From assembly GCA_947588775.1 (NCBI GenBank), contig CANPZQ010000001.1:1-58206 (forward strand): a DNA stretch of 58,206 nt, in the 5' to 3' direction. Below, piece after piece: positions 5,390 through 50,546 of this stretch. Position 1 is the stretch's first letter; each line of letters begins with the position of its first letter. The stretch is from an uncultured Clostridia bacterium (GTDB lineage Bacteria; Bacillota; Clostridia; Oscillospirales; Ruminococcaceae). The notes beneath the pieces are model-generated. The model did not search any database. It was not told the DNA's origin and was given only the letters and a program-made list of their open reading frames with translations. The translations under genes and the position numbers were made by a program.

Positions 5390-5471
5390 GCGCGGCGAAG
5401 GGGGCGGGGGGGGGGGGTGGGTGGCGGGCAGTGGCTTTGGCGGCCGCAGAGAGCAGCCCCCTTCGCCGCGC
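5390..5471 (+). repeat. hairpin/G-core repeat unit U1
   Basis: 16-nt arms gcgcggcgaagggggc / gcccccttcgccgcgc are exact reverse complements; G-rich interior with a G12 run (5406-5417) and GGGTGGGTGGCGGGC. Confidence 0.85.
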
Positions 5472-8350: not shown

Positions 8351-11170
8351 TTAGTCCTCGCCGAGCTTGAGGGCCTTGTTGATGTTAATCTGCTTAATCA
8401 GCCTCGCGATAACGATGAAACCGACGACAAGCATTACAAGGACTATTACATAGAGCTTGATATAGTCGCTTCTCTGGGAAACAACCTTGAAGGGCGGCAC
8501 CTGGTCGGTGACGTTGTAGAGGACCTGGAAGAGCGGGACGAATATATCCGAAGCGATTCCGCCGATTATAATCGAGAGGAAGATTGAAACCCCCGAAACC
8601 AGCAGCTGCTCGTATACAATCATCGAGATGATTTCCCTGAAGGACATACCCATCGCCCTTAAGATACCGAACTGAAGGGTTCTGCCCTTGATTGAGAGTA
8701 TCCAGTAAATAAGGAAGCCGATGAAGCACATCGCCATAATCGTTATGAACCCGAGGGTGAGCGCGCCGTTTACGCCCTGTAAGACGGCGTCGGTTTTCGA
8801 CGCAATAATAAGCTGGGAGGCGACGTCCATTCTCGTCGCGACGATTCCGTTGTCGGTCGCGGCCTGGTAGAACTCGGCGACGTCAGCTTTATCCTCCATC
8901 GAGAGCCAAACCTGATACGGCTCGGTAATCGTCATTATGCTGACGTAGTCGTAGTTTAGGATAATGAAGTCCTGGTAGTCGCCCTGAGAGTTCTTCTCGT
9001 AGGGGTTCATGCTCGGCCAGTAGTCGACAATCGCGACGACGGTCGTTTCAAACCAGTTGTTTCTCGCCCACTTTACCTCAACGACGTCGCCGAGGTTTAC
9101 GCCCTTCTTATCGGCGTAGGAGCGGGAGATAATCGCGCCGTCCTGACATTCGCCGAGAGCGTTGATGTAGTAGTTTATATGGACCGGCAGAAGGTCGGAG
9201 CGGAACCATGCGACCTGGGCGAACTGGTCGGGAATAATCGCCATCGCCACGCAGTCGGTCTGGTTGGAGTCGTTATAGCGCATCTGCACCATGTCGCGCT
9301 TGAATACCGGAGTCGCGAGCTTTACGCCGGGGAGCGTCGAATAACGCTCAAATTCCGGCTCGGTATACTGGGTGGTCGAGGTTTCCTCCCCGGCCTCCTC
9401 GTCGTATACCTTTACCCTGCTTGTTTTCCACGCCTCCTCGATAACCGCGTCCGCGCCGAGGTTATAGCGGATTCTCTCCTCGGTGTTGCGGTTGATGGCG
9501 CGGGCGGTGTTCGCCGAGAAAATTCCGAGAGCGACGGTTAAAATCAGGAATATCATTATGAACTTTTCCCGTCCCGTCGAGGAGCGGCCGATATTGTTTA
9601 AGGAAATATACGCCGCCGGCGACCAGTGCTTTCGGCCGATGTTGTAGACAAGCCTTATGAAGTAGGGGTAGATTCTTACGCATAAAAGTGCCGCGCCGAG
9701 AATAAATACCGTAGAAGCCGCGAACATCAGCGGGTTCATCGTCGAGGAAGTGTCGACGATTCCCTGACGAATAAGGTTGTCGTTGGTGCGGTTATACCAC
9801 CAGAGCCAGAGCACCGGCAGAACGATGCAGATAACGTCGAGGAAGGAGCGCTGCCAGAAGGGCTTTTTCTGCATATGCGCCTTCGACTGCTTATGCGCGA
9901 CGATTGAAACCCGCGAGGCGGGGATAATAGGCACAAGGGTAGTTATGAAGAATACCCCGACCGCCGCAACCGCGTAGCCGAACGCCGTAAGCGAGAGCTT
10001 CGCGTGAAGAGCGGGGCGGTTTACAAATTCCAAAAATCCGTTTGAAACGCCCAAGACGTTGCATAGCCCGAGCCCCACGAACGGCCCGACGAGTGCCGAA
10101 ACCGCGCCGAGAATAAGTGTTTCGTAGGCGTAGATTCTTAGTATCTGCCAAGCCGACGCGCCGCGCGATTTAAGCATCGCGATTTCGTTTCTCTCGGATT
10201 CGATATTGAGCTGAGATACCATAAACAGGTAGAATATCAGCATCAGAATAACCGGAATGTCGAGCATCAGCATTATATACTTGAGCGAAGCCGCTTTCGA
10301 GGCGTATTCCTCAAGGACCTCCTGCGCGGGGACCTCGAAGGTCGTCGCCTCTTCCTTATACTGCTCGAGCTGCGAGGCGAACTGGTTGCGGACATGCTCA
10401 ATAACGTTCATGTCCATGTGCTGATAGTCGATTATGAAGCGGCAGTCGACCTGGTTGAGGTTTACGATGCCGGTGAAGATGATTTCGTCGGTGAGGGTTA
10501 TGAAGTCGGTGAAGAAGGTGTTGTCATAGTTAGAAAGCCCCTCCGACCAGTAGGTGTCGGTTTCGGACGAGGGCTCGAAAACGCCGACAATCTTTATTTT
10601 CAGGGTATCCTCGGTAACTCTGTCGAGAATGTTCTTTACCTCGTAAACCTGATTGGTGACGAGCTGGGTGAGCTGCAAGGCCTTCTCGGTGCAGATTACC
10701 TCGTAAACGCCGTCGGCGTCCTTCTCGGAGCTGAACATTCTTCCCTGAATGATATTGATGTGGTCGCCTATATCCGTCATTCCGCCCAGCTTCACCATCG
10801 CGGGGTCGCCCTCGGTTTCAAAGTTCGTGACGTAAAGGTACGAATCCGAGGTGAACGCCTTATAGGTTTCATAAGGCACGAACAGGTCGTTGAAACGGTT
10901 CGCCGCGCGGGCGTAGACGTTGTTTACGTTGGCACGCTGGTTTTTCGCGCTCGTGCCGCTTACGAGCGTCTTGGAAACGGCGTAAACGCCGGGATATACC
11001 CCTTTTTCCTCCTGATACGCCTGCATATCCTTAATCAGCATTCGCTGTAAGGACGCGTGCATATATATCGGGATTGTACTCGTCATGGCGGTGGCCATGA
11101 TAAATCCGATAAGAAGACAGATTACCATCCATTTGGTATTGCGCATCTTTCGGAGTAGAAGTGTCAACAT
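8351..11170 (-). CDS. ABC transporter permease with two FtsX-type domains and two large extracytoplasmic domains (MacB-type, 939 aa)
   Basis: TM1, ~270-aa loop, 3 TM, further TMs, second large loop, 3 C-terminal TM; GGAGGA RBS before ATG 11170. Confidence 0.8.
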   Translation of the reverse strand: MLTLLLRKMRNTKWMVICLLIGFIMATAMTSTIPIYMHASLQRMLIKDMQAYQEEKGVYPGVYAVSKTLVSGTSAKNQRANVNNVYARAANRFNDLFVPYETYKAFTSDSYLYVTNFETEGDPAMVKLGGMTDIGDHINIIQGRMFSSEKDADGVYEVICTEKALQLTQLVTNQVYEVKNILDRVTEDTLKIKIVGVFEPSSETDTYWSEGLSNYDNTFFTDFITLTDEIIFTGIVNLNQVDCRFIIDYQHMDMNVIEHVRNQFASQLEQYKEEATTFEVPAQEVLEEYASKAASLKYIMLMLDIPVILMLIFYLFMVSQLNIESERNEIAMLKSRGASAWQILRIYAYETLILGAVSALVGPFVGLGLCNVLGVSNGFLEFVNRPALHAKLSLTAFGYAVAAVGVFFITTLVPIIPASRVSIVAHKQSKAHMQKKPFWQRSFLDVICIVLPVLWLWWYNRTNDNLIRQGIVDTSSTMNPLMFAASTVFILGAALLCVRIYPYFIRLVYNIGRKHWSPAAYISLNNIGRSSTGREKFIMIFLILTVALGIFSANTARAINRNTEERIRYNLGADAVIEEAWKTSRVKVYDEEAGEETSTTQYTEPEFERYSTLPGVKLATPVFKRDMVQMRYNDSNQTDCVAMAIIPDQFAQVAWFRSDLLPVHINYYINALGECQDGAIISRSYADKKGVNLGDVVEVKWARNNWFETTVVAIVDYWPSMNPYEKNSQGDYQDFIILNYDYVSIMTITEPYQVWLSMEDKADVAEFYQAATDNGIVATRMDVASQLIIASKTDAVLQGVNGALTLGFITIMAMCFIGFLIYWILSIKGRTLQFGILRAMGMSFREIISMIVYEQLLVSGVSIFLSIIIGGIASDIFVPLFQVLYNVTDQVPPFKVVSQRSDYIKLYVIVLVMLVVGFIVIARLIKQININKALKLGED

Positions 11171-11210
11171 CGTGATTCCTCCATGCTGTTAAATTCCGCA
11201 AAACGCGCTT

Positions 11211-12260
11211 CTATCTGATTATTACCTCGTCGCCGGGTTCAAGTCCCGAGGTTATCTCGACGAGCGAGCCGCTCTGAAGTCCCAAAGAAACGTTTACCGG
11301 CACGCGCTCGTTGTCTTTGAACACATATACGCAGTCCACGCCGTTGACCTTCTTAACGAGGTTCGCCGAAATAACGATTACGTTTTCGCGCTTGTCAAGA
11401 ACGAGTATAGTATCGGCGATATTTCCGACCGCCGAGCTCTCGGGAATCAGGTCGTTGAACTTAACGATAATATCCTCCGACTGCTCGCCCAAAACCTCCT
11501 CGCCGTTCGCGTCAACCTTTGCGGCCTCGGTGGCTTCGTCCCACTGAAGTCCCGACTTGTTGCGGACGATTGTTCCGTCGTAGTATTCGCCCTCGTAGCG
11601 AATAGAAATCGGGCGGCCGATCATGAACTGGTCGTTGTCGTTAGACGGGTCGATTTTTATATACAAATCGGTGATGTCGATAATCGTGACGATTGTTTCG
11701 CCGGCGTTAATCCAGTCGCCGGGGGAGCAGGTTCTTACATAGGAAACCGTTCCGCCGACCTCGGCGTAAATCTTCGCGGCCTCCTTGTCGGCATAGAGCT
11801 TATCCAAATCGTTCTGCATAAGCTGAACGTCCAAAAGCTCCTTTTGCTTGACGGTTTCGGACTCGTGCTTTTCGACTGCGATGTCGTATTCGAGCTGCTC
11901 GCGCAAAAGCTCAAGCTCGCCACGCTCAAGCTGCTTGTCGAGCTCGTAGGTGTCGTATTCGGCCAAAAGCTGGCCCTGCTCCACAACGTCGCCCGCGGAA
12001 ACGTATACCGCCTTGATGTTTCCGCCGACGTCGGAGAACCTCGCGTTGTACTCGGTTCCCGAGGCGATGTTGCCGGGGGTGAGAATCTGCTTCGTGATGT
12101 CCTTAAGCTCCGCTGTCGTCGTCGTATAGGATACCTCGCTCGCCTTTACTACCGGAGGCTCTAAAAGCTCCTCCTCCTTCGGCAGGAAATAGCACCCCGT
12201 TAGCGACGACATCGCTAAAATTGCCGCGCTTAGTATGGATATTGTCTTTGACGGTTTCAT
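11211..12260 (-). CDS. HlyD/MacA-type periplasmic adaptor lipoprotein
   Basis: lipobox LTGC; lipoyl-like GDVVEQGQLLAEYD, long coiled coil, beta-barrel C-terminus. Confidence 0.8.
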   Translation of the reverse strand: MKPSKTISILSAAILAMSSLTGCYFLPKEEELLEPPVVKASEVSYTTTTAELKDITKQILTPGNIASGTEYNARFSDVGGNIKAVYVSAGDVVEQGQLLAEYDTYELDKQLERGELELLREQLEYDIAVEKHESETVKQKELLDVQLMQNDLDKLYADKEAAKIYAEVGGTVSYVRTCSPGDWINAGETIVTIIDITDLYIKIDPSNDNDQFMIGRPISIRYEGEYYDGTIVRNKSGLQWDEATEAAKVDANGEEVLGEQSEDIIVKFNDLIPESSAVGNIADTILVLDKRENVIVISANLVKKVNGVDCVYVFKDNERVPVNVSLGLQSGSLVEITSGLEPGDEVIIR

Positions 12261-12371: not shown

Positions 12372-13961
12372 TTACCGATTGTATTCGATTTTATCCTTTG
12401 TGACGACAAAGGAGTTGTTGTAAAAGCTCACCCAGAGCGTCGCGGGGGTATAGCTCCCCGATGCGGAATATTCGCCCGTCCATGCCGAGCAAAAGCTCCA
12501 TGCCGCTCCGTCGCGCGCCGCCAAAAGGGGCTGCGGGAGGGTCGAAGCCTCGCTAAGGGCAATCGGCTTGCTTTCGGAAATCTCCCGCGCGGCCGCCATA
12601 AGGCTTATGCCGCTGCCGAGGGATTCGCCCTCGTTAAGATATACGTCGAGGGAAATTATGTCGCACATTTCGTCGCCGACGTACCATTCGGGGCTCTGGC
12701 CGTTCCATATCCAAATCAGATTGTCGAGGCCGTGGTAGAGGGTCATCCTCTCAAAAATCAACTTGTATATCCAAAGATAGCTTTCCGCGCTCTTCGACCA
12801 CCAGAACTGACCGCCCGAGGCTTCGGGGAGGGGCCGGAAAAGAACCGGGATTCCCTCGTCCCTAAGACGCTTTAAAGCGTCGGCAGCTCTGTCGATTCCG
12901 TCAATCAGCGCGAGGGTTTCCGCCCCGATTGCGCCGTCGCCGTAGCGGAGCGCGAGGGCCTCGCCCTCCATAGTCGCGATGTCGAGGCTTGTTACCGCTT
13001 TTTCGGCGTCGAAGGCGGTTTTTTCGGCGTATACCGAGCCGTTTTGCGTCCAGTTCCAGACGTAGCCGACGATTCCGCCCGACTTCGCCCACTCGATTGC
13101 AAGCTCGACGTCGCCGCTGTCCGCGCCGGCCGAGTAGCCCATCAGCTCCCCGAACCGAATCGCGGGATATTTCCCCGTTAAATAATAAATTTCGTCAAGC
13201 TCGGCGTTTGTTCCCTGCGAGGCTTGCTGCCCGCTGAGAATTTTTTTGCCGTAATTGCTTAAAATATATTCGTAAAGCTCCCGTGCCTCCAAAGACGGCT
13301 CCTTTGTGCAGAGAGCCGCGTCCTCGGGGAGCGCGAAATCCGCATGCGGCTCGCCGTCCTCGATTAAAACGCAGTCGAGGTCGACCGGCGCAGTCATGTC
13401 CGAAAAGCCAAGCTCGCATGTCCCCGCCGGGAGAAAAACGTTTTCAAACCGAAGGCTCTCAAAGCCCTGCCCCGAAAGGGCAAAGCACCCGTATTCGAGG
13501 CCGCCGATGTAAAGCTTCCCCGAAGCGGGCTCGTCGGAGGCCGCCCGAAGGGTCAGCGAATAGTGCTGCGGCGACGGAACGTCAAGAACGAAGGATACGC
13601 CCGAATCGCCGTATGCGCCCGAAATGTACCCCGCGCCGGAATAACCCTCGCGGAGGTCGGCCGCCTGCCCGCCGGCGGCGGTATGCTCGAGCTCAATCAG
13701 AAGCTCAAAATCCTCGGAAACGCACTCGGGGAGCGAAATTTCCTGTTCGGAATATTTCGGCGGCTCGGGCGTCGGCGGAGGCGGAGGCGTTGTTTCGGGC
13801 GGAAGCGTTTCGGGAAGGCTCTGGGTAAAGAACGAAATCCCCTGCGTTTGGCCCGGCTGCGGCTCCGGTGCGGCCTGAGAGCAAGCCGCGAGGAGAATCG
13901 CCGCGCCGATCAGCATAGCGGTCAGTCTGTACATGATTTTCTCCGTTGTTGATTTATTCAA
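12372..13961 (-). CDS. lipoprotein with N-terminal CBM-like module and GH26-like (beta-mannanase family) catalytic domain
   Basis: lipobox LAAC; ILSGQQ, FRPLPEASGGQFWW (cf. GH26 RPxHExxGxWFWW), LDNLIWIWN, CDIISLDVY, PIALSEAS. Confidence 0.7.
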   Translation of the reverse strand: MNKSTTEKIMYRLTAMLIGAAILLAACSQAAPEPQPGQTQGISFFTQSLPETLPPETTPPPPPTPEPPKYSEQEISLPECVSEDFELLIELEHTAAGGQAADLREGYSGAGYISGAYGDSGVSFVLDVPSPQHYSLTLRAASDEPASGKLYIGGLEYGCFALSGQGFESLRFENVFLPAGTCELGFSDMTAPVDLDCVLIEDGEPHADFALPEDAALCTKEPSLEARELYEYILSNYGKKILSGQQASQGTNAELDEIYYLTGKYPAIRFGELMGYSAGADSGDVELAIEWAKSGGIVGYVWNWTQNGSVYAEKTAFDAEKAVTSLDIATMEGEALALRYGDGAIGAETLALIDGIDRAADALKRLRDEGIPVLFRPLPEASGGQFWWSKSAESYLWIYKLIFERMTLYHGLDNLIWIWNGQSPEWYVGDEMCDIISLDVYLNEGESLGSGISLMAAAREISESKPIALSEASTLPQPLLAARDGAAWSFCSAWTGEYSASGSYTPATLWVSFYNNSFVVTKDKIEYNR

Positions 13962-41813: not shown

Positions 41814-44012
41814 TCAGCTATGCGCACTGTGCGCGCCTTCGATTATATCCGCCGAGCCGATAACGGCGAGCGAATTCCCGACGACCGCCGCGCTAACCCT
41901 GCCGTCGGACATGATATAGAGCACGCCGCCGTTCAAAACCGCCTTGCCGTATTCAAACGCCTCGTCGGTTTCGTGAATTTCGGTTTCGCCGACAAGCGCG
42001 AAGCCCTCTGCGCCGTCCCTGTAAACCGCGTATCTGTAGCAATAGTCAAGCCCGTCGAAGAAGCCGTAAGGCACCCCGACGATGTCCCCGCTCACAAACA
42101 TAATACCGTTGTTTCTGAGAGCCTTTGAATCCGCGCCGTTTTCCCTGCACACGAGCGTCTTGTGTTCAAGCTTCAGGCCGCCCGCGCCGTCGTCCGAGAG
42201 CTTTGAAAGCTCAAGCTGGCCCGAGGCGTTCTTGGTGAGGGTGACGTAGCCGCCGTTGAAGTTCAGCAGTCCCTCAGCGGGATTCGCCGCCGGAACATTC
42301 TCCAAAAGCACTGGAACGTTTATATTGGTCAGGTCGATAATATGCTTTTCCTTCGCGCCCTTGAGGATAAGGGTGCTGCCGGCTCTTTCGGCCTCGGTCA
42401 AAGCCGCCGGGAAGTTTATACCCGAGATATAAACCATCGTCGCGTCATATATCCCGAACGACGTCACATATGCTCCGTCGACCTTTTTAATCGCCGTAAC
42501 CGCGAGGTAGTCCCCAATCGGGGAAATCCCGTCGCCGCCGAGGGCTACTCCCTCGATGTCGGTGAAGCCGTTGTAGATAACGCTGCCGCCCGCGAGGCTG
42601 AACACTCTCACCGAGGTGAGGTCGGTTCCCGCAGCGTTGTCGTAGGAGAAGAGGTAAACCGCGCCGTTGCAGAGCACAGCTCTTCCCTCATACCCGACGA
42701 CCGCCTTCACCGAAACCGCGCCGTCGACCGTAATTCCGGAGATAACGGTATAGTCGGTGTTTGAAACATAGTCGGGAATCATTATATCCGGGGCGGAAAC
42801 ATAGAATTTCTCGCCGTTTACGGTATACGCGGGGACGTAGTTTTCAAGGTCGTCAACCCCCGCAATCGGCGAACCGCGATAGTCGTCGTATGCGGTGACA
42901 AGGTAAACCGCGCCGTTTGAATAGTTCATGTCGATAAGCGTTCCGCTCTGGACCGTGTCGTTGGTGAGATATGCCTTGCCGTCAAGAATGTCGTATACGC
43001 ACACCTCGACCTCGTTTTTCTTAACGCCGACCGCGCTCTCAGCTGGTCCGTAGAGGCTGTCGAGAAGCTCGCCCACAACTCCGTCGCGGGGTTCGTCCTG
43101 TGCGGGAGCGGTTCCCGCCGTCGTTTCAACGGTATAAACCGCAACGACCTTTGTGCCGTCCGCATAGAAGCCCGCAAGGGTCTTTGAAGAGAATCCGTCA
43201 TAGGACGGGAAGATGTTGTCGGTATAGCTAAGCGCGCCGTTCACCGATGTGACGATTCTTAAAATATTGCCGTCGCGGCGAAGCAGGAAGCCGTTTCCGA
43301 AGGCGGCGTCGGAGTTATCGACGACCGCGGGGTTTTCGGGAAGGGGCAGGCTGTCGCTGATGACCGCCGGGTCGTCCCTCTCGTCAACCGTTTCGCCCGG
43401 GTCTGCGGCGGGAGTTTCCCTGTCGGGAGCGTCGGTCTGCGCGGGCTCCTCGGTTGTCGCGGGAGCAGTCTGCGTGGGAGTGGTCTGGGTCGGTGAAGGC
43501 TCTGTTCCGGCGGGTTCGGTCGTTTCGGCGGGAGGATTTACCGCCGTCGCGGCGTCGTTGTCGTTGTCGTTATAGGAATGCTCAATATCAGAAATAGCGT
43601 CGTCGAGAGTGCGCTTATCGCCGTCGTCGACATAGTATTTCGCGAAGGTCTTATGAACGTCGCCGTAGTCGTTCGCATACGCTCCGCCGGGGTTCTTAGG
43701 CTCCTCGGGGAGGGTTGCGGTGTCGGTTCTCGAATATGTGACAACGCCGAGGACGAGTGCCGCGCAGGCCGCTACGGAGGCAATGGAGCGGAAGGCGGCA
43801 GACGTCTTTCTTCCGGCAGGTACAGCTGATATATCTATACGGTTGGAGTCTGATTTAATCTTTTTTGCGGAAATGTCGGTATGGCGGGAACCGAGGGCGT
43901 TTTCGGCCATCTTCTCGTCGAGCATGGCTGCGATGCTGCGCGGCTCAAGTCTTTCGGGTATCGGAAGCTGGTCGAACAGCTCGTTATAGATGCTCTGTCC
44001 GCGCTTTGCCAT
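41814..44012 (-). CDS. membrane-anchored anti-sigma-like protein with large extracytoplasmic beta-propeller-like domain
   Basis: cytoplasmic N-terminus, single TM (AFRSIASVAACAALVLGVV), Pro/Thr/Glu linker, repeated NGAVYL-type strands; directly downstream of the ECF sigma gene. Confidence 0.55.
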   Translation of the reverse strand: MAKRGQSIYNELFDQLPIPERLEPRSIAAMLDEKMAENALGSRHTDISAKKIKSDSNRIDISAVPAGRKTSAAFRSIASVAACAALVLGVVTYSRTDTATLPEEPKNPGGAYANDYGDVHKTFAKYYVDDGDKRTLDDAISDIEHSYNDNDNDAATAVNPPAETTEPAGTEPSPTQTTPTQTAPATTEEPAQTDAPDRETPAADPGETVDERDDPAVISDSLPLPENPAVVDNSDAAFGNGFLLRRDGNILRIVTSVNGALSYTDNIFPSYDGFSSKTLAGFYADGTKVVAVYTVETTAGTAPAQDEPRDGVVGELLDSLYGPAESAVGVKKNEVEVCVYDILDGKAYLTNDTVQSGTLIDMNYSNGAVYLVTAYDDYRGSPIAGVDDLENYVPAYTVNGEKFYVSAPDIMIPDYVSNTDYTVISGITVDGAVSVKAVVGYEGRAVLCNGAVYLFSYDNAAGTDLTSVRVFSLAGGSVIYNGFTDIEGVALGGDGISPIGDYLAVTAIKKVDGAYVTSFGIYDATMVYISGINFPAALTEAERAGSTLILKGAKEKHIIDLTNINVPVLLENVPAANPAEGLLNFNGGYVTLTKNASGQLELSKLSDDGAGGLKLEHKTLVCRENGADSKALRNNGIMFVSGDIVGVPYGFFDGLDYCYRYAVYRDGAEGFALVGETEIHETDEAFEYGKAVLNGGVLYIMSDGRVSAAVVGNSLAVIGSADIIEGAHSAHS

Positions 44013-44047
44013 CGGATTTCCTCCTTTCAGTCAATAACTTAAATAAC

Positions 44048-44608
44048 TCAGGTTTCCTCAAGAAGCCGCCGCAGCTTGGTTTTTCCTCTTGCGAGATGGG
44101 TTCTTACGGTCGCGGCGTTGATTCCGGTTATCTTCGATATTTCGTCGCTCGTATAGCCGTAGATGGCGTTGAGCGAGAAGCAGATTTTTTCATTTTCGGA
44201 GAGGCTTTCTATATGCTCCAAAAGCTCGATTCCGCCGTACTTTGATTCTCGGTCGGGGATTTCGACCTCTCTGCCGTCGTCGGAAGCGTCGTCGCGGATT
44301 GCCTCGATATAGCTGAGGTTTTCGCGGGCGGAAACGTATTCCGCCTGCTTCCGTTTTATTTTGGCGGTGAGGATTCTTATCATCCAGCCCTTGAAGGCGT
44401 CTTCGTTTTTGATGTTCTTTATACCCACGAAGGCGTCCAGAACCGCGTCCTGCACCGCGTCGGCGGCGTCGTCGGGAGAATTGAGGTTGCACAGGGCATA
44501 ATAGTAAAGCTCTTTATATATTGCCGAATAAAGCTCTGCAAAGGCGTTGCTGTCGCCCTTTGCGGCCTTTTTCACAAGCTCCGGGAAGCCGGATTTCAAG
44601 TATCTCAC
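44048..44608 (-). CDS. ECF-type sigma-70 family RNA polymerase sigma factor
   Basis: region 2 (DAVQDAVLDAF) and region 4 HTH (YGYTSDEISKITGINAATVRTHLARGKTKL); start GTG 44608 or TTG 44599. Confidence 0.85.
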   Translation of the reverse strand: MRYLKSGFPELVKKAAKGDSNAFAELYSAIYKELYYYALCNLNSPDDAADAVQDAVLDAFVGIKNIKNEDAFKGWMIRILTAKIKRKQAEYVSARENLSYIEAIRDDASDDGREVEIPDRESKYGGIELLEHIESLSENEKICFSLNAIYGYTSDEISKITGINAATVRTHLARGKTKLRRLLEET

Positions 44609-44896
44609 CTCGCTTTGCGGCTATACAGAGCCGCCCGCGGGGCTTCTGTATAGTAAGTGTCAAAAAAATGCGTTTTTGTTGCATCGCCGAAAAAATATTT
44701 TTTGTATAATACGCGGTAAATATTACCTTTTGTAATACGCAGGCGCATAATTCGCTACAATAGCTTATTATACACTATTCTCTCCGAGATTACAAGACAA
44801 AACGGGAAATTTTTTTGAAGCGCGGCCGACGGTTTTACCACGAAAACGCGAACGCCGCCGGCCGGAACCGACGGACGCCAAGACTTTCGCGGATAC

Positions 44897-44925
44897 GGAA
44901 AAAGGGGGACGAGGCCCCTTTTTCC
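44897..44925. terminator. symmetric intrinsic terminator downstream of the feo operon and repeats U6/U7
   Basis: ggaaaaagggg (44897-44907) / cccctttttcc (44915-44925). Confidence 0.55.
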
Positions 44926-44970
44926 CGAGGTATATAAAAATGAAAAAAAGAATAAGGCTTAGCGAAGGGA

Positions 44971-45051
44971 GCGCGGGGAAGGAGCGGGGGGAGGAGGGAA
45001 GGGTGGGGTGGGCGGGCGGGTGGGCGCAGGAAAGGAGCTCCTTCCCCGCGC
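44971..45051 (+). repeat. hairpin/G-core repeat unit U6
   Basis: arms gcgcggggaaggagc / gctccttccccgcgc exact complements; interior gggtggggtgggcgggcgggtgggcgcagg. Confidence 0.85.
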
Positions 45052-45117
45052 GGGGATTTAGCGGGAGCCCTTGTAGAGAGGAGCCTGCGAAGCCCGGGGC
45101 TTTGCGGCCCGTTGACC

Positions 45118-45200
45118 GGCGCGGGAGGCCTGCTCCCTTCGCGGCTTCCATGGGCTCCCGCGCCCCACCCTCCCACCCCTCCCCGCAGTCCTCCCGCGCC
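45118..45200 (-). repeat. hairpin/G-core repeat unit U7
   Basis: arms ggcgcgggaggcctgc / gcagtcctcccgcgcc (15 of 16 paired); interior ccccaccctcccacccctcccc. Confidence 0.8.
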
Positions 45201-45203
45201 TCC

Positions 45204-45386
45204 CTACCTCGCCTTCCCCGCCGCGCCCCCGCACTTTCCGTGCAGAGCGCAGCTCTCGCAGCCGCACCCGCAACCGCCCTTGCCGGATTTTTTATCCCGG
45301 CGGAGCGAAACAACTATCCAGACGACCGCCGCGATTAAAAGCACGGCCGCCACAATCGTCCCGAGGTTCTGAATAAGCCAATCCAT
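45204..45386 (-). CDS. FeoB-associated Cys-rich small membrane protein
   Basis: one TM then ..KKSGKGGCGCGCESCALHGKC; directly downstream of feoB. Confidence 0.7.
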   Translation of the reverse strand: MDWLIQNLGTIVAAVLLIAAVVWIVVSLRRDKKSGKGGCGCGCESCALHGKCGGAAGKAR

Positions 45387-45398
45387 TTCGTTTCCTCC

Positions 45399-47861
45399 TT
45401 ACTTCACCGCCGCCTTTGCCTTTTTGACGACGCCGCTGCTTTCCTTATAGGGTCTGAAGAGCATGTATACCCCGAACGCGATTATAACCGCCGAAACCGC
45501 GAGCCCCAAAATATTCGCCGAGCCGGCAAAGAGCATTCCGATTTGGTTCACGCAGAGCGCGACGGCGTAGGCGAAGAGGCACTGATACGCGATTGCGAAC
45601 CATGTCCACTTCGCGCTGTTCATCTCCCTGCGAATCGCGCCGATAGCCGCGAAGCAGGGCGCGCAGAGCAGGTTGAACACCAAAAACGCAAGTCCTCCCG
45701 ACTGTGTGAACGCCGCGGCCATCGCCGCATAGGCCGAGCCCTCGCCGCCGTAGAGAATCCCCATCGTCCCGACGATGTTTTCTTTTGCGACAAGCCCCGT
45801 GATGGAGGCGACGGCGGCCTGCCAGTTTCCCCAGCCGAGCGGCGCGAATATCCAAGCAATCGCCCCGCCGACCGTAGCGAGTATAGAACGGTCGACCTGC
45901 TCGTCGGTGAGCATTCCGAAACGCCCGTCTACGAAGCCGAAGTATGTCGTGAACCAGATAACGATGGTCGAAAGAAGAATAATCGTTCCCGCCTTCTTGA
46001 TGAAGCTCCAGCCGCGCTCCCACATCGAGCGAAGGACGTTTGAAACGGTAGGCCAGTGGTATGCGGGAAGCTCCATTACAAACGGCGCAGGGTCGCCCGA
46101 GAACATCTTCGTCTTTTTAAGTATAATTCCCGAAACGATAATCGCGCATACGCCGAGGAGGTAGGCAAAGGGTGCCACCCACCATGCTCCGCCGAAGATC
46201 GCGCCCGCAATCATCGCGATAAAGGGAAGCTTCGCGCCGCAGGGGATAAACGTCGTCGTCATAACGGTCATTCGCCTGTCGCGCTCGTTTTCGATGGTTC
46301 TTGAAGCCATGATTCCCGGAACGCCGCAGCCCGAGCCGATGAGCATAGGAATAAAGGACTTGCCCGAGAGGCCGAATTTTCGGAAGATTCTGTCCATTAC
46401 GAACGCGATTCTCGCCATATATCCGCAGCTCTCCAAGAACGCAAGGAAGATAAAGAGTATGAGCATCTGCGGGACGAACCCGAGCACCGCTCCGACGCCC
46501 GCGACGATTCCGTCGAGGATTACCCCCCTGAGCCAGTCGGCGCAGTTAATAGCGTCGAGCGCGGATTCGAAAAGCGGCGGAATACCGGGTATCCAGACGC
46601 CGTAGTCGGCGGGGTCGGGCTCCGAGAAGGAATATTTTTCAAGGGTGCTCCCCGCAAGCGCGAGGTCCTCTCCCGAATACACAACCTCGTCCTCGGCGAG
46701 GGTTTCCTCGTCGACAACGGTCAGAACCGCCGTATCTCCCGCCGAAAACCGCGCCGCAAATTCATCGACAGCGGCCCTGTCGGCGGTTTCAAGGTCGGGG
46801 GCTTCGACCCCGTACTGTCCCGAAAACGCGTCGATAGCGTTTACCGCCTCGCCGTATTCCTCGGCGGCTTCCTCGTAGGCACCCGTTCCGATTCCGAAGA
46901 GATGCCAGCCGTCGCCGAAAACGCCGTCGTTCGCCCAGTCGGTCGCAATTGTTCCGACCGTCGTCACCGACACATAGTAGACGATAATCATAACCGCCGC
47001 GAAAATCGGCAGCGCGAGCCAGCGGTTTGTTACGACCTTGTCGATTTTATCCGAAACCGAGAGGCTTCCCGCGCCCTTCTTGCGGCAGCAGCCCTTAATC
47101 AGCTCGGCTATGTATATATATCTTTCGTTCGTTATAATCGATTCCGCGTCGTCGTCAAGCTCGGCTTCGGCGGACTGAATATCCTCCTCGATGTGCTTTA
47201 AAACGCTGTCGGGAATGCTTAAGGCCTCCATCGCCTTTGAATCGCGCTCGAAAATCTTGATGGCGTACCATCTCTGCTGTTCGGCGGGGAGGTCGTGGAC
47301 TGCCGCCTCCTCGATATGCGCGAGAGCGTGCTCCACAACGCCGGAGAAGGTGTGGTGCGGCACAGGCTTCTTTTCCTCGGCGGCTTCTATCGCGGCCTCG
47401 GCCGCCTCCATGATTCCGTCGCCCTTTAAGGCGGAGATTTCGACGATTTTACAGCCGAGCCGCTTTGCGAGCTCAGACGTGTTGATTTTATCGCCGTTCT
47501 TTCTCACAACATCCATCATGTTGACGGCCGCCACGACAGGGATACCAAGCTCAATCAGCTGTGTTGTCAGATAAAGGTTTCTCTCAAGGTTAGTCCCGTC
47601 GATGATGTTTAAAATCGCGTCGGGGCGTTCGTTGATTAAATAATTCCTCGCGACGACCTCTTCAAGCGTATAGGGCGAGAGGGAATAGATGCCGGGCAGG
47701 TCGGTGACGGTTACGCCGTCATGCTTTTTAAGCTTTCCCTCTTTTTTCTCGACGGTTACGCCCGGCCAGTTTCCGACAAACTGGTTAGAGCCCGTGAGCG
47801 CGTTGAAAAGCGTAGTCTTGCCGCTGTTGGGGTTGCCCGCGAGGGCTATCGTGATTGCCAT
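45399..47861 (-). CDS. feoB: ferrous iron transporter FeoB
   Basis: G-domain GNPNSGKTTLFNALTG, DLPG, NMMD; multi-TM gate domains. Confidence 0.95.
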   Translation of the reverse strand: MAITIALAGNPNSGKTTLFNALTGSNQFVGNWPGVTVEKKEGKLKKHDGVTVTDLPGIYSLSPYTLEEVVARNYLINERPDAILNIIDGTNLERNLYLTTQLIELGIPVVAAVNMMDVVRKNGDKINTSELAKRLGCKIVEISALKGDGIMEAAEAAIEAAEEKKPVPHHTFSGVVEHALAHIEEAAVHDLPAEQQRWYAIKIFERDSKAMEALSIPDSVLKHIEEDIQSAEAELDDDAESIITNERYIYIAELIKGCCRKKGAGSLSVSDKIDKVVTNRWLALPIFAAVMIIVYYVSVTTVGTIATDWANDGVFGDGWHLFGIGTGAYEEAAEEYGEAVNAIDAFSGQYGVEAPDLETADRAAVDEFAARFSAGDTAVLTVVDEETLAEDEVVYSGEDLALAGSTLEKYSFSEPDPADYGVWIPGIPPLFESALDAINCADWLRGVILDGIVAGVGAVLGFVPQMLILFIFLAFLESCGYMARIAFVMDRIFRKFGLSGKSFIPMLIGSGCGVPGIMASRTIENERDRRMTVMTTTFIPCGAKLPFIAMIAGAIFGGAWWVAPFAYLLGVCAIIVSGIILKKTKMFSGDPAPFVMELPAYHWPTVSNVLRSMWERGWSFIKKAGTIILLSTIVIWFTTYFGFVDGRFGMLTDEQVDRSILATVGGAIAWIFAPLGWGNWQAAVASITGLVAKENIVGTMGILYGGEGSAYAAMAAAFTQSGGLAFLVFNLLCAPCFAAIGAIRREMNSAKWTWFAIAYQCLFAYAVALCVNQIGMLFAGSANILGLAVSAVIIAFGVYMLFRPYKESSGVVKKAKAAVK

Positions 47862-47881
47862 TGTTTGACCTTCTTTCGTTC

Positions 47882-48103
47882 TTATTCTACTTCAATCATT
47901 TCGGCGTCGGCCTTTCTCAGGCTAAGCTCATATCCGCGCACATTCACCTCGAACGGGTCGCCGAGCGGGGCGACCTTGCGGACGTATACTTCGACGCCCT
48001 TTGTGATTCCCATGTCCATTATTCTTCGCTTTACGGCTCCCTCGCCGTGCAGCCGGACCACCCTTGCGGTTTCGCCGACCTTAACTTCGCTGAGTGTTTT
48101 CAT
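47882..48103 (-). CDS. feoA: FeoA family protein
   Basis: 73 aa, SH3-like FeoA pattern (GETARVVRL..RRIMDMGITKG..V.V). Confidence 0.85.
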   Translation of the reverse strand: MKTLSEVKVGETARVVRLHGEGAVKRRIMDMGITKGVEVYVRKVAPLGDPFEVNVRGYELSLRKADAEMIEVE

Positions 48104-48239
48104 TCAGCTTCCTCCTTTACGGTAAACTATATTCGCCGGAGGACAAAAACATCCTCCGAAAAAAGACAAACTCGGTTAGTGGCCGCTAACTTAGCGGCTT
48201 TTTTGCGGGAAGCCGCCGAAAACGGGCTTCCCGAAGAGC

Positions 48240-48452
48240 TTAAACCATAATTTTCTGCGCCATTTCCTTTGAAAGGGCGACGCGGGATTCCTTTACCTTT
48301 ATAATCAAATTGCCGCTTATTTCGGAAATCGGCGTTACGCCGCCGCCCACGTTGAAGCCGAGGTCGGCGAGGTGTTTTTTGACGTCGGGCGAGCCGCCGA
48401 TTTTCTTGATAATCTGTTCGCGGCCGACGTCGGCATATGTCAGAGGAATCAT
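48240..48452 (-). CDS. feoA: FeoA family protein (second copy)
   Basis: 70 aa; ATG 48452 after AAAGGAGG; the track ORF N-terminal extension runs through repeats and was discarded. Confidence 0.8.
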   Translation of the reverse strand: MIPLTYADVGREQIIKKIGGSPDVKKHLADLGFNVGGGVTPISEISGNLIIKVKESRVALSKEMAQKIMV

Positions 48453-48486
48453 AAAACAAGCCTCCTTTTGGGGTTTTGGCGGGGCA

Positions 48487-48583
48487 GCGCGGGGAAGGAG
48501 CGGGGGGGAGAGAGAAAGGTGGGTGGGCGGGCGGGTGGGGGGGGGGGGGGGGGGGGCGCAGGAAAAGAGCTCCTTCCCCGCGC
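48487..48583 (+). repeat. hairpin/G-core repeat unit U8 (contains G20)
   Basis: arms gcgcggggaaggagc / gctccttccccgcgc exact complements; interior ggtgggtgggcgggcgggtG(20)cgcagg. Confidence 0.85.
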
Positions 48584-48650
48584 GGGGGCTTGCGCGGAAA
48601 ATTTCGTTCCGGCAGCCTGCGAAAGCCCGGGGCTTTGCGGCACTTTGACC

Positions 48651-48732
48651 GGCGCGGGAGGCCTGCTCCTTTCGCGGCTGCCGTAGGCTCCCGCGTCCCA
48701 CCCTCCCACCCCTCCCGCAGTCCTCCCGCGCC
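48651..48732 (-). repeat. hairpin/G-core repeat unit U9
   Basis: arms ggcgcgggaggcctgc / gcagtcctcccgcgcc (15 of 16 paired); near-copy of U7. Confidence 0.8.
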
Positions 48733-48752
48733 TTGTCTGTGCGCAGAAATCA

Positions 48753-48832
48753 GCGCGGCGGCGGAGCGTGGGGAAAGCGCGAAGCTTGGGCGGGCGGGTG
48801 GGTGGGCGCAGGGAGCAGCTCCTTCGCCGCGC
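48753..48832 (+). repeat. hairpin/G-core repeat unit U10 (arms imperfect)
   Basis: arms gcgcggcggcggagc / gctccttcgccgcgc (13 of 15 paired); interior gggcgggcgggtgggtgggcgcagg. Confidence 0.7.
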
Positions 48833-48872
48833 GTCCTCGGCGCACCCTTCGCGGGCTTTCAGCTGAGCCCCC

Positions 48873-48953
48873 GCGCGGCGCGGGGAGCTCCTTTCGCGGC
48901 TTTCATCGGCGCCCGGGTCCCACCCGCCCGCCCCACCGCTCCCCGCGCCGCGC
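48873..48953 (-). repeat. hairpin/G-core repeat unit U11
   Basis: arms gcgcggcgcggggagc / gctccccgcgccgcgc exact complements; interior cccacccgcccgcccc. Confidence 0.85.
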
Positions 48954-49028
48954 TTCTCCCCTGCCCCTTTTCTCCTCATACCTCTCTCCTCACACCCCAC
49001 CCGGTTAGCCCCTGCTAACTACAATTCT

Positions 49029-49056
49029 ATTTTATTCGATTTTATGCGTTTGTCAA
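49029..49056 (-). promoter_or_regulatory. candidate feo operon promoter
   Basis: minus strand TTGACA (49056-49051), 16 nt, TAAAAT (49034-49029); I saw no other promoter-like sequence between it and feoA. Confidence 0.4.
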
Positions 49057-49223
49057 TAGCTTTTATTCGCATTCCGGCAAATTCGGAAGTGTGTACAAAA
49101 ACAGTTAGCCGCAGCTAACTTCAATTGGGTAAAAAGACAATGTGAATCCGGCGGCACTGCATACATTGTTATAACTGTCATATTCTCGCCTTTTTTGGCA
49201 GTATCAAATTTTTGTATCAAAAC

Positions 49224-49249
49224 GCCGGAGCACACCCGCATGCTCCGGC
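49224..49249 (-). terminator. hairpin terminator after the CNNM/CorC gene
   Basis: gccggagca / tgctccggc stem; short T-tract (gTTTTg) on the minus strand. Confidence 0.5.
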
Positions 49250-49274
49250 TAAATTTATCCGTCCCGCCAAAAAA

Positions 49275-50546
49275 TTATTTTTCCTTTTCCCCGTCGTCAT
49301 CGTCGCCGCCGTCCTCCTTCGGGTTGACGGTTATCCGAACGCGCTCGATGCGCTGCTCGTCGACGGAAACGACCTTGATGTGGAACCGCCCGCAGTCGAC
49401 CTCCTCGTCGGGTTCGGGAATGTGGTCGAGGTTCTCCATGACAAGCCCGCCGATTGAGTTGCAGTCGGTTTCGATTTCATCGGGGTCAAGGCCGATATTG
49501 TCAAGAAAATCGCGGATTGAGAGGTCGGCGGAAACCTCGTATTCGTCCTCCGAAAGCTTTACGAAAGAGGTGTCCTCCTCGTCGGTTTCGTCGTAGATTT
49601 CGCCGACAAGCTCCTCAATTATGTCCTCCATCGTGACGATTCCCTGGGTGCCGCCGTACTGGTCGACGACGACCGCCATATGGGTCTTGGCGCGTTGCAT
49701 CTGCTGCATAATATCCGAGATTGGCGTAAGCTCGAATATGTAGAGCGGCTTCTGGATTATTTCGTTGATGTCGCGGCGGCCGTTGAGATACATATCGAAG
49801 AAGTTTTTCTCATGGATTATCCCGACTATCGAGTCGATTGTTTTTTCATAAACGGGAAGCCGGGAGAAATGCGACGTAATAAACGCGTCCTTGATTTCCT
49901 CGGGGCTCTGGTCGATTTCCACCGCGGAGATATTCACGCGTGGAATTAAAATTTCGCTGATGGTTATGTCTGAAAACTCAAGCGCGGATTTGACGAGGTC
50001 GCTTTCGTTTTCGTCGAGGACACCCTCGTCCTCGATTTCGTCGATGATATATTTCAGCTCTTCTTCCGTCATCGTCGGGGAATCGTTCGAGCCCCCGCAG
50101 AGCTTTATAACGATGTTTTTAAGCCCGGTAAGCAGCCATACAAGCGGCGTTAAAAGCGTTTTGAGGCCGTAGAGCGGGTATGAAATCCACATTGTAACGG
50201 TTTCCGAAAATTCGTTCGCAATATTTTTCGGGATAATTTCGCCGAAGATGATTACCAAAACCGTCATAACCGCCGTGGATACGGGGACATAGCGCGCGCC
50301 CAAGCGCGATGAAATCATTACCGTCGCGACGGTAGTCGACGCGAGGTTTACGACGTTGTTGCCGATAAGAATCGTTGTGAGCGTTCTGTCGAAGCTGTCG
50401 GTGAGTTTAATAGCCATTCTTGCGCGTTTGCTTCCCTCGTCCGCGTAGCTCCGAAGGCGCACCTTGTTCACGGACGACAGAGCCGTTTCCGACGCGGAAA
50501 AGAGTGCGGAAAGTATCAGCAGTATGACTATTATGAAAACGTCCAT
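49275..50546 (-). CDS. CNNM/CorC-type hemolysin-family protein (DUF21 TM domain, CBS pair, CorC_HlyC)
   Basis: N-terminal 4 TM with SASETAL, CBS region, C-terminal transporter-associated domain. Confidence 0.85.
   Translation of the reverse strand: MDVFIIVILLILSALFSASETALSSVNKVRLRSYADEGSKRARMAIKLTDSFDRTLTTILIGNNVVNLASTTVATVMISSRLGARYVPVSTAVMTVLVIIFGEIIPKNIANEFSETVTMWISYPLYGLKTLLTPLVWLLTGLKNIVIKLCGGSNDSPTMTEEELKYIIDEIEDEGVLDENESDLVKSALEFSDITISEILIPRVNISAVEIDQSPEEIKDAFITSHFSRLPVYEKTIDSIVGIIHEKNFFDMYLNGRRDINEIIQKPLYIFELTPISDIMQQMQRAKTHMAVVVDQYGGTQGIVTMEDIIEELVGEIYDETDEEDTSFVKLSEDEYEVSADLSIRDFLDNIGLDPDEIETDCNSIGGLVMENLDHIPEPDEEVDCGRFHIKVVSVDEQRIERVRITVNPKEDGGDDDDGEKEK

What the first reader, a model, noticed from the sequence alone, without database searches (positions are those of the whole stretch)
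44970..48733. The feo operon is bracketed by same-orientation composite repeat copies
44970-45201 (232 bp, downstream of the feo genes) and 48486-48733 (248 bp, upstream of feoA) are direct copies of the same two-unit composite, U6+U7 versus U8+U9. The arms of U6 and U8 are identical. The second block (45084-45201 versus 48616-48733, about 118 nt each) differs at roughly nine positions in my manual alignment. The ~45 nt between the blocks is poorly conserved. Direct repeats of this length flanking a 3.3 kb iron-uptake cassette are a ready substrate for RecA-mediated deletion, tandem amplification or cassette exchange. The left copy lies between the last feo ORF stop (45204) and the terminator at 44897-44925, so it would be part of the 3' UTR.
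Basis: partly seen in the sequence, partly recalled or inferred. Interest (0 to 1): 0.6.

Follow-up and report, generated by a model that had tools for sequence, protein, structure and literature searches.

The report
Repeat copies flanking the feo operon
The iron-uptake (feo) operon of this uncultured gut bacterium really is flanked by two same-orientation copies of a 230-base repeat, but they are ordinary members of a genome-wide repeat family that landed in the operon's untranslated ends, and nothing suggests that feo is a movable or deletable cassette.

Summary
Window 44970-45201 (L) and 48486-48733 (R) are direct copies of a two-unit composite with sharp borders. All four hairpin arms are identical, block 2 differs at 9 of 119 columns, and the spacer is unrelated.

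The similarity exceeds family background. U7 and U9 are reciprocal best matches among 489 units. The full composite has only four copies in the genome.

The cassette reading is not supported:
- Six congeners lacking the repeats keep feoA-feoA-feoB-feoX next to the same ECF sigma gene.
- They keep the same promoter, operators and terminator. G000's repeats are therefore insertions into the 5' leader (between operator 2 and the RBS) and the 3' UTR of an ancestral operon.
- The family has about 530 units in 1.94 Mb, and 121 gene blocks are bracketed by same-strand units.
- Thirteen local sister pairs flank ordinary genes such as tpiA, serS and alaS.
- L and R are about 80% identical, with at most 25 identical bases in a row, so they are a poor RecA substrate.

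One congener has the feo unit inverted between inverted copies of a different repeat family, so repeat-mediated rearrangement here is possible.

The parts
44897..44925 (-). Intrinsic terminator of the feo operon (GGGAAAAAGGGGCC...GTCCCCCTTTTTCC), preceded by the conserved TTTTATATACCT
   Evidence: Terminator scan and RNA fold. Its position and the TTTTATATACCT motif are conserved in 5 congeners.
44970..45201 (+). Left composite L. It comprises unit U6 (44971-45051, G-rich core on the + strand), a spacer (45052-45083), a linker with the AAGCCCGGGGCTT mini-palindrome (45084-45117) and unit U7 (45118-45200, G-rich core on the - strand). It lies in the feo 3' UTR.
   Evidence: It is absent from the same intergenic region of G024, G017, G007, G005 and G023. 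As RNA it folds into one long hairpin, z = -5.0.
45204..45386 (-). FeoB-associated Cys-rich membrane protein (60 aa). Its last ~8 codons (45204-45232) are repeat-arm-like sequence that replaces the congeners' C-terminus (...ALHGQCRKAKQ* becomes ...ALHGKCGGAAGKAR*).
   Evidence: Pfam PF12669, E = 8e-12. Comparison of translations with congeners. Arm-like match D6.
45399..47861 (-). feoB, 820 aa, the only full-length FeoB in the genome
   Evidence: Pfam FeoB_N, Gate, FeoB_C and FeoB_Cyto. Whole-genome search.
47882..48103 (-). feoA (second copy), 73 aa
   Evidence: Pfam PF04023, E = 1e-24.
48240..48452 (-). feoA (first copy), 70 aa
   Evidence: Pfam PF04023, E = 7e-13.
48486..48733 (+). Right composite R. 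It comprises unit U8 (48487-48583, includes a G20 run at 48537-48556), a spacer/linker and unit U9 (48651-48732). It lies in the feo 5' leader and ends 33 nt before the feoA ATG.
   Evidence: It is a G000-only block in the alignment with 7 congeners.
48753..48953 (+). Second doublet R2 (U10 48753-48832, U11 48873-48953). Together with R it forms a four-unit cluster collinear with own-genome contig C40:7541-7090; R2 is 89% identical over 216 nt to its C40 counterpart.
   Evidence: blastn, unit table.
49004..49119 (-). Conserved feo control region: GTTAGC-N4-GCTAAC palindromes at 49004-49019 and 49104-49119 flanking the promoter TTGACA-16-TAAAAT (49056-49029)
   Evidence: Promoter scan, 11/12 match. 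Pattern count. Conserved in all 7 congeners, where palindrome 2 lies 20-40 nt from the ATG instead of about 540 nt.

Best explanation
L and R are sister copies of one lineage of a rare 'G-first' doublet. Each doublet is two ~82-nt hairpin units with a (GGGN)3GGG core, placed head to head. They belong to a species-specific interspersed repeat family of about 530 units.

The copies were inserted into an ancestral, syntenic feoA-feoA-feoB-feoX transcription unit. R, together with a second doublet R2, sits between the promoter-proximal operator and the ribosome-binding site. L sits between the last stop codon and the conserved terminator.

The bracketing is a by-product of two properties of the family. 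It is very dense. New or converted copies also tend to resemble copies 0.3-10 kb away, through local copying or local gene conversion (this step is inferred).

The pair does not mark a mobile cassette. At about 80% identity it can recombine only rarely. Its likeliest present effect is on the feo mRNA: a ~570-nt structured leader and a long 3' hairpin. That effect is inferred, not shown.
For: Shown:
1. Congeners G024, G017, G007, G005 and G023 have feoA-feoA-feoB-feoX followed by the same ECF sigma and 732-aa genes. G015 has the same neighbours with feo inverted. None carries the G-rich motif at the locus.
2. The promoter, both palindromes, the RBS and the terminator are conserved. G000 has about 513 extra nt between palindrome 2 and the RBS, and about 270 extra nt between the FeoX C-terminus and TTTTATATACCT.
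3. GGGCGGGCGGGTGGG occurs 283 times in G000 and 0 times in 54 of 55 other genomes searched (40 congeners, 15 same-order genomes). There are 531 core clusters and 489 units with a stem score of at least 10, mostly 16-17.
4. 220 consecutive repeat clusters lie no more than 4 kb apart, and 121 of these pairs share a strand.
5. 37 units have their best genome-wide match 0.3-10 kb away, against 3.9 +/- 2.3 in 1000 permutations.
6. 13 local reciprocal-best pairs flank tpiA, serS, alaS, a pheA-like gene and others.
7. L and R share a compensatory G/C state in both U6/U8 arms that the two C40 copies lack.
8. The longest exact L/R match is 25 nt.
9. No transposase lies between or beside the copies.
Against: - No read-level or strain-level data could be examined, so rare deletion or duplication variants cannot be excluded.
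- The L/R identity is mosaic: arms 100%, spacer 44%, while the R spacer is 78% like the C40 copy. This hints at recombination among copies.
- The only four copies of this composite form two direct pairs, each bracketing one transcription unit (C1 feo; C40 pheA-like). That is more order than simple random insertion predicts.
- In G015 flanking repeats did rearrange the feo unit.
- Gene calls used for the genome-wide statistics are crude ORF calls.
Confidence: 0.75

Rival explanations
1. L and R act as a working recombination substrate, so that RecA-mediated crossover deletes, tandemly amplifies or exchanges the 3.3-kb feo segment often enough to create standing variation in iron uptake.
For: - Direct orientation, 232-248 nt, sister copies above family background.
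- Block 2 alone is 92-93% identical over 118 nt.
- In congener G015 the feo unit is inverted exactly between 138-nt, 83% identical inverted repeats of another family.
- REP elements are known join points of tandem duplications in Salmonella (my own knowledge, not checked here).
Against: - Overall identity is 79-81% and the longest perfect match is 25 nt. This is below the >40-bp MEPS, and the divergence is in the range that lowers Bacillus recombination by 10^2 to 10^4-fold (PMC4824099).
- feo is ancestral here and is the only full-length feoB.
- A crossover would leave the promoter, one composite and the terminator with no iron transporter.
- Comparable or better direct pairs flank serS and alaS, where deletion would be lethal.
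- No variant contig was found.
Confidence: 0.08
2. L and R did not arise by one copying event. Ongoing gene conversion between neighbouring family members (concerted evolution) keeps them alike, so they interact by recombination without crossover.
For: - Mosaic identity: all four arms and both cores are identical, but the spacer is unrelated, while R's spacer matches the C40 copies.
- Genome-wide, similarity is enriched for pairs 1-3 kb apart: 9% of such pairs score above 0.75, against 1.2% across contigs.
Against: - Similarity ends exactly at the element borders.
- Identical stretches are 25 nt or shorter.
- Selection on stems could also keep the arms identical.
- R2 is closer (89%) to a copy on another contig than L is to R, so proximity is not required for high similarity.
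Confidence: 0.2
3. The doublets have been co-opted as cis-acting RNA or DNA elements of feo. The G-quadruplex/hairpin leader would tune transcription or translation, and the 3' hairpin would protect the mRNA. The pairing of copies at both ends would then be functional.
For: - Both lie inside the transcription unit.
- The 3' UTR doublet folds into a long hairpin, z = -5.0, and the leader folds with z = -2.8.
- The RBS and operators are left intact.
- REP/BIME hairpins in 3' UTRs stabilise upstream mRNA in E. coli (my own knowledge).
Against: - Seven congeners run the same operon without any such element.
- Units occupy convergent, divergent and tandem intergenic regions alike (27%, 20% and 15%), with no strand preference relative to transcription (114 vs 89).
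- No Rfam family matches.
- No expression data are available.
Confidence: 0.1
4. The flanking similarity is only what any two units of the family share by chance.
For: U6-U8 score only 0.52 (83rd percentile), and U6 has 32 better partners elsewhere.
Against: - U7-U9 are reciprocal best matches at the 99.8th percentile.
- The full two-unit composite with its linker has only four copies in the genome.
- The G-first doublet type is rare: about 9, against 70 of the C-first type.
- L and R share a compensatory arm state unique to them.
Confidence: 0.02

Closest known systems
REP/REPIN elements and BIME clusters of Proteobacteria (Bertels & Rainey 2011, PMC3116915; PMC3337134)
   Same: - Extragenic, hairpin-forming, hundreds of copies, lineage-specific.
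- Occur as inverted doublets and as alternating-orientation clusters.
- Sit in 3' UTRs.
- Stems differ between copies but stay complementary.
   Different: - Units are 80-90 nt with a ~50-nt loop carrying a G-quadruplex motif, rather than 20-40-nt palindromes.
- 298 of 390 clusters are singletons.
- No RAYT was found. The only Y1 transposase is an IS200-type fragment, and Y1 transposase (Pfam Y1_Tnp) genes also occur in 10 repeat-free congeners.
- The host is an uncultured Clostridia-like gut bacterium.
Correia elements (CREE) of Neisseria
   Same: Small non-autonomous repeats that insert into transcribed leaders and 3' regions of ordinary genes, so that they become part of mRNAs. Sister copies can flank genes.
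   Different: Correia elements have defined terminal inverted repeats, a TA target duplication, and known promoter and RNase III functions. None of these was demonstrated here, and there is no sequence relationship.
Repeat-flanked chromosomal rearrangement (deletion or duplication between direct repeats, inversion between inverted repeats)
   Same: The geometry of L/R fits the deletion/duplication case. Congener G015 shows the inversion case at the same operon, with another repeat family at both breakpoints.
   Different: Classical substrates (IS copies, rrn operons) are longer than 1 kb and nearly identical. L/R are 232-248 nt, about 80% identical, with 25 nt or less of uninterrupted identity. 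No rearrangement product was observed in this species.
Composite transposons
   Same: Two copies of one element bracket cargo genes.
   Different: The flanking elements encode no transposase. The cargo is ancestral, with its native promoter outside and its native terminator outside the bracket. The repeats lie inside the transcription unit.

Membership tests
REPIN / REP-RAYT system | Short extragenic palindromic units present in many copies | tested here: met
   489 units have a stem score of at least 10 (mostly 16-17) and lie in intergenic DNA. The units are much longer (80-90 nt) than classical REPs.
REPIN / REP-RAYT system | Inverted doublet is the predominant replicating form | tested here: inconclusive
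   70 C-first doublets and about 9 G-first doublets, against 298 singletons. L, R, R2 and the C40 copies were evidently copied as whole doublets.
REPIN / REP-RAYT system | A cognate single-copy RAYT (REP-associated tyrosine transposase) flanked by the repeats | tested here: not met
   The only PF01797 hit is a truncated IS200-type TnpA (NF033573) at a contig end. Y1 transposases occur in 10 of 40 congeners that lack the repeats. The genome is 96% complete in 193 contigs, so absence is not proven.
Composite transposon | Flanking elements are insertion sequences encoding or bound by a transposase | tested here: not met
   No ORF with transposase similarity lies in or next to L or R.
Composite transposon | Bracketed genes are acquired cargo, absent from the site in relatives | tested here: not met
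   feo is present at the same site, with the same control region and the same downstream neighbours, in 6 congeners.
MITE | Terminal inverted repeats plus target-site duplication, derived from a resident IS | tested here: inconclusive
   The stems could serve as terminal inverted repeats. No target duplication is visible at L or R. Flanks show only a conserved A before and GG after the stem. No parent IS was found.
Direct-repeat-bounded deletable/amplifiable unit | Uninterrupted identity above the minimal processing segment (>40 bp in B. subtilis, PMC4824099) | tested here: not met
   The longest exact match is 25 nt. The next longest are 22, 21, 20, 20, 19 and 19 nt.
Direct-repeat-bounded deletable/amplifiable unit | Observed deletion or amplification variants with junctions in the repeats | not testable with these tools
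Only two contigs under 0.9 kb from other samples exist, 99.6-99.8% identical and ending before the repeat. The best metagenome locus has 76% FeoB identity.

The most novel reading that the evidence does not exclude
The doublets may spread preferentially between the two ends of one transcription unit. All four copies of this composite form two direct pairs, each bracketing a single transcription unit. Genome-wide, a unit's best match is about 9 times more often within 10 kb than expected, with a direct-orientation excess (27 direct vs 12 inverted). This could reflect a transcription-coupled, R-loop/G-quadruplex-dependent or RNA-templated copying mechanism rather than classical transposition.
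Probability: 0.06. Interest if true: 0.7.

Novelty: new member of a known kind. Interest (0 to 1): 0.3.

Why it matters
By itself the bracketing is ordinary. In a genome where every fifth intergenic region holds a repeat, many operons are flanked by same-strand copies.

The useful results are three.
1. A dated natural experiment. The sole ferrous-iron importer of this species acquired a ~510-nt block of four G-quadruplex hairpins between its operator and its RBS, and a 230-nt hairpin in its 3' UTR. Seven congeners keep the compact form. This gives a clean pair of constructs for testing what such repeats do to expression.
2. Statistical evidence that this family spreads or homogenises locally.
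3. A concrete case in a sister species (G015) where a different repeat family sits at both breakpoints of an inversion of the same operon. This shows that lineage-specific repeats reshape this locus.

Tried and rejected
- Same-species contigs by exact protein look-up:
  - ECF sigma: none.
  - FeoA proteins: only two contigs of 888 and 817 nt. They are 99.6-99.8% identical and stop 22 nt or more short of R.
- Metagenome scan with FeoB: 80 loci, best 76% identity, none of this species and none with the motif.
- Rfam scan of 44000-50000 at E <= 1: no match.
- RAYT hypothesis: rejected. The hit is only an IS200-type fragment, and Y1 transposases show no correlation with the repeats across the genus.
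- Transposase or cargo idea for genes between local sister pairs: rejected. They are housekeeping genes.
- Replication-strand bias of singleton orientation: none (chi-square p = 0.999; no correlation with GC skew).
- Target-site motif: only A at -1 and GG after the stem, which are probably part of the element.
- Literature search for a G-quadruplex-bearing REP-like family: nothing matching.
- Synteny break at R/R2: rejected. The break with congeners lies upstream of the conserved promoter, not at the repeats.
Full report
OBSERVATION

The stretch holds, on the minus strand:
- feoA (48240-48452)
- a second feoA (47882-48103)
- feoB (45399-47861)
- a FeoB-associated Cys-rich membrane protein (45204-45386)

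These are called from ORFs and Pfam. The flanking genes are an ECF sigma gene (44048-44608) and a CNNM/CorC gene (49275-50546).

The two composites align from AGCGCGGGG to CGCGCCT, with unrelated sequence outside. Segment by segment:
- All four hairpin arms are identical.
- The unit-2 loop matches at 45/51.
- The unit-1 loop matches at 45/51 apart from a 17-nt poly-G insertion in R.
- The spacer matches at only 14/32.

Block 2 differs by 7 substitutions and 2 one-base indels in 119 columns.

THE REPEAT FAMILY

The units belong to a family built as a 16-17-bp stem closing a ~50-nt loop with a (GGGN)3GGG core, 80-90 nt in all.
- The window has 22 matches to GGGCGGGCGGGTGGG at up to 2 mismatches, against 0.21 expected.
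- The 1.94-Mb genome has 531 core clusters. Of these, 489 have a clear enclosing stem.
- The exact 15-mer occurs 283 times in this genome. It occurs zero times in 54 of 55 other genomes searched (40 congeners, 15 same-order genomes), and twice in G013.
- It is absent from all 101 other loci fetched.

This agrees with an earlier follow-up note on the family. I re-derived it independently.

IS THE L/R SIMILARITY MORE THAN FAMILY BACKGROUND?

Yes.
- In an all-against-all global alignment of the 489 units, U7 (45118-45200) and U9 (48651-48732) are reciprocal best matches at the 99.8th percentile. U6-U8 score lower only because of the poly-G insert.
- The full two-unit composite with its linker has just four copies in the genome: L, R, and two on own contig C40 (7541-7313 and 5920-5690).
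- L and R share a compensatory G...C state in the U6/U8 stem that the C40 copies lack.
- The 'G-first' doublet architecture is rare: about 9 doublets, against 70 'C-first' doublets and 298 singletons.

L/R is not uniquely close, however. R2 (48741-48965) is 89% identical to C40:7305-7090. R is as similar to C40:7539-7306 (80.8%) as it is to L (81.1%).

IS FEO A CASSETTE?

No.

Synteny. Congeners whose FeoB is 82-89% identical were fetched.
- In G024, G017, G007, G005 and G023 the order feoA-feoA-feoB-feoX, ECF sigma, 732-aa protein is the same as in the window.
- G015 has the same neighbours with feo inverted.
- None has the G-rich motif at the locus.

Downstream side.
- All congeners show the FeoX stop, then TTTTATATACCT, then a terminator hairpin, then the sigma promoter region.
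- G000 has the same frame with about 270 extra bases, namely L plus an arm-like remnant.
- That remnant rewrites the FeoX C-terminus. Congeners read ...ALHGQCRKAKQ*; G000 reads ...ALHGKCGGAAGKAR*.

Upstream side.
- All seven congeners show GTTAGC-N4-GCTAAC, then TTGACA-17-TAAAAT, then a second GTTAGC-N4-GCTAAC, then 20-40 nt, then the RBS and ATG.
- G000 keeps this promoter (TTGACA-16-TAAAAT, 49056-49029, 11/12) and both palindromes (49004, 49104).
- G000 carries about 513 G000-only bases (R2 + R) between palindrome 2 and the RBS.

Both composites therefore lie inside an ancestral transcription unit, in a ~570-nt leader and in the 3' UTR.

The break in synteny on the upstream side lies beyond the promoter, not at the repeats. 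The CNNM gene is not the neighbour in any congener, and the congeners differ among themselves.

IS BRACKETING SPECIAL?

No.
- With crude ORF calls, 18% of intergenic regions hold units: 27% of convergent, 20% of divergent and 15% of tandem regions. There is no strand preference relative to transcription.
- 220 consecutive repeat clusters lie no more than 4 kb apart, and 121 of those pairs share at least one same-strand unit.
- The family shows local relatedness. 37 units have their genome-wide best match 0.3-10 kb away on the same contig, against 3.9 +/- 2.3 (maximum 14) in 1000 permutations.
- 13 local reciprocal-best pairs bracket one to five genes. These include triose-phosphate isomerase, seryl- and alanyl-tRNA synthetases, and a chorismate mutase/prephenate dehydratase-like gene.
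- Several of these pairs are closer to each other (0.88-0.98) than U7-U9.

Pairs around essential genes cannot be deletion devices. The feo pair is one instance of local copying or local gene conversion.

The mosaic identity leaves conversion open: L's spacer is unrelated, while R's spacer is 78% like C40a.

RECOMBINATION POTENTIAL

The longest exact L/R matches are 25, 22, 21, 20, 20, 19 and 19 nt. Overall identity is 79-81%.

For Bacillus subtilis, PMC4824099 reports:
- a minimal efficient processing segment of more than 40 bp;
- a 200-400-fold drop in recombination at about 8% divergence;
- up to about 45,000-fold at about 21% divergence.

Crossover between L and R is therefore possible but should be rare.

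A crossover would delete the only full-length feoB of the genome. It would leave the promoter, one hybrid composite and the terminator.

A RELEVANT PRECEDENT IN A CONGENER

In G015 the whole feo transcription unit, promoter to terminator, is inverted relative to G024, with collinear flanks. L016 8842-12161 matches L021 12473-9155.

Both breakpoint intervals contain arms of a ~138-nt inverted repeat, 83-84% complementary: L021 8978-9115 and 12494-12629.

That repeat belongs to a different family:
- at least 40 full-length copies in G015;
- a shorter relative in G024;
- no copy in G000.

So lineage-specific repeats have landed on both sides of feo independently in two species. In one species they coincide with a rearrangement.

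MECHANISM OF SPREAD

- No RAYT was found. The only Y1 transposase is a truncated IS200-type TnpA at the end of contig C35.
- Y1 transposases occur in 10 congeners without the repeats.
- There is no orientation bias by contig or GC skew.
- No target-site duplication is visible.

The mobilising activity remains unknown.

RNA FOLDING

- The 3' UTR doublet folds as one long hairpin in which the G-rich unit pairs with the C-rich unit: -181 kcal/mol, z = -5.0.
- The leader folds with z = -2.8.
- No Rfam family matches.

CAVEATS

- The genome is a 193-contig, 96%-complete assembly.
- 37 poly-G/C runs of 10 nt or more (up to 54 nt) exist, against none of poly-A/T. Almost all sit exactly at the core position of a unit, and at least nine are at contig ends. 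The G20 run in R may therefore be a sequencing or assembly artefact rather than a real tract.
No same-species contig spans the locus. Structural variation within the species is therefore untested.

VERDICT

- Observation: confirmed.
- Interpretation: partly supported. The 3' UTR position and the real sister relationship hold; the 'ready substrate' and 'cassette' readings do not.
- Classification: a new member of a known kind, namely REP/REPIN-like dispersed repeats flanking genes.
- Interest: modest.

Noticed in passing
L021 (G015:C4) 8978-9115 and 12494-12629; compare L016 (G024:C14) 8842-12161: In congener G015 the whole feo transcription unit is inverted relative to six other genomes. Both breakpoints carry inverted copies (83-84%) of a ~138-nt G015-specific repeat family. 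That family has at least 40 full copies in G015, a shorter GCCCCCGCCCCTCRAGGGGCGGGGGC relative in G024, and none in G000.
   Followed up: yes
window 48537-48556 and 5406-5417; own genome contigs C10, C30, C48, C90, C112, C121, C127, C155 and others: There are 37 poly-G/C runs of 10-54 nt and no poly-A/T run of 10 nt or more. Nearly all sit exactly where a unit's G-quadruplex core should be, and at least nine end a contig. This looks like a sequencing or assembly artefact at G4 motifs (dark-cycle G calls), although real hypermutable tracts are not excluded.
   Followed up: partly
window 49004-49019, 49104-49119 and a degenerate copy near 48175-48190; own genome C22:7269 and C22:7701: The GTTAGC-N4-GCTAAC palindrome occurs only four times in the genome. 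Two copies flank the feo promoter and are conserved in all 7 congeners. Two lie next to an 81-aa heavy-metal-associated (GMxCxxC, CopZ-like) gene. It is a likely operator of a metal-responsive repressor.
   Followed up: partly
window 45204-45232: The last ~8 codons of the FeoB-associated small protein are repeat-arm-like sequence (GCGCGGCGGGGAAGGC). They give a C-terminus (GGAAGKAR) unlike that of all congeners (RKAKQ). The repeat insertion has therefore rewritten a coding 3' end.
   Followed up: partly
own genome C40:5690-7541 (with C35 end); L021 1821-4601: The other two copies of the composite bracket a chorismate mutase/prephenate dehydratase-like gene in direct orientation. The four-unit cluster downstream of it is collinear with R+R2. 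In G015 the orthologous genes are contiguous (a 47-nt gap and an overlapping stop/start). In G000 the upstream neighbour lies on another contig.
   Followed up: partly
own genome C35:15042-15224: A truncated IS200-type TnpA (NF033573) sits at a contig end, with a repeat unit about 180 nt beyond its stop. Y1 transposases also occur in 10 repeat-free congeners, so no link to the repeats is indicated.
   Followed up: yes
whole own genome: The dominant multi-unit form is a 'C-first' doublet with a ~22-nt gap (70 cases). The 'G-first' doublet with a 66-105-nt gap, as found around feo, is rare (about 9).
   Followed up: partly
window 49121-49275 and congener loci L016-L022: The gene upstream of the feo promoter differs in nearly every congener. 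It is CNNM in G000 and orthologues of own contigs C6, C47 or C13 elsewhere. The region upstream of feo is therefore a recurrent synteny breakpoint in the genus.
   Followed up: partly
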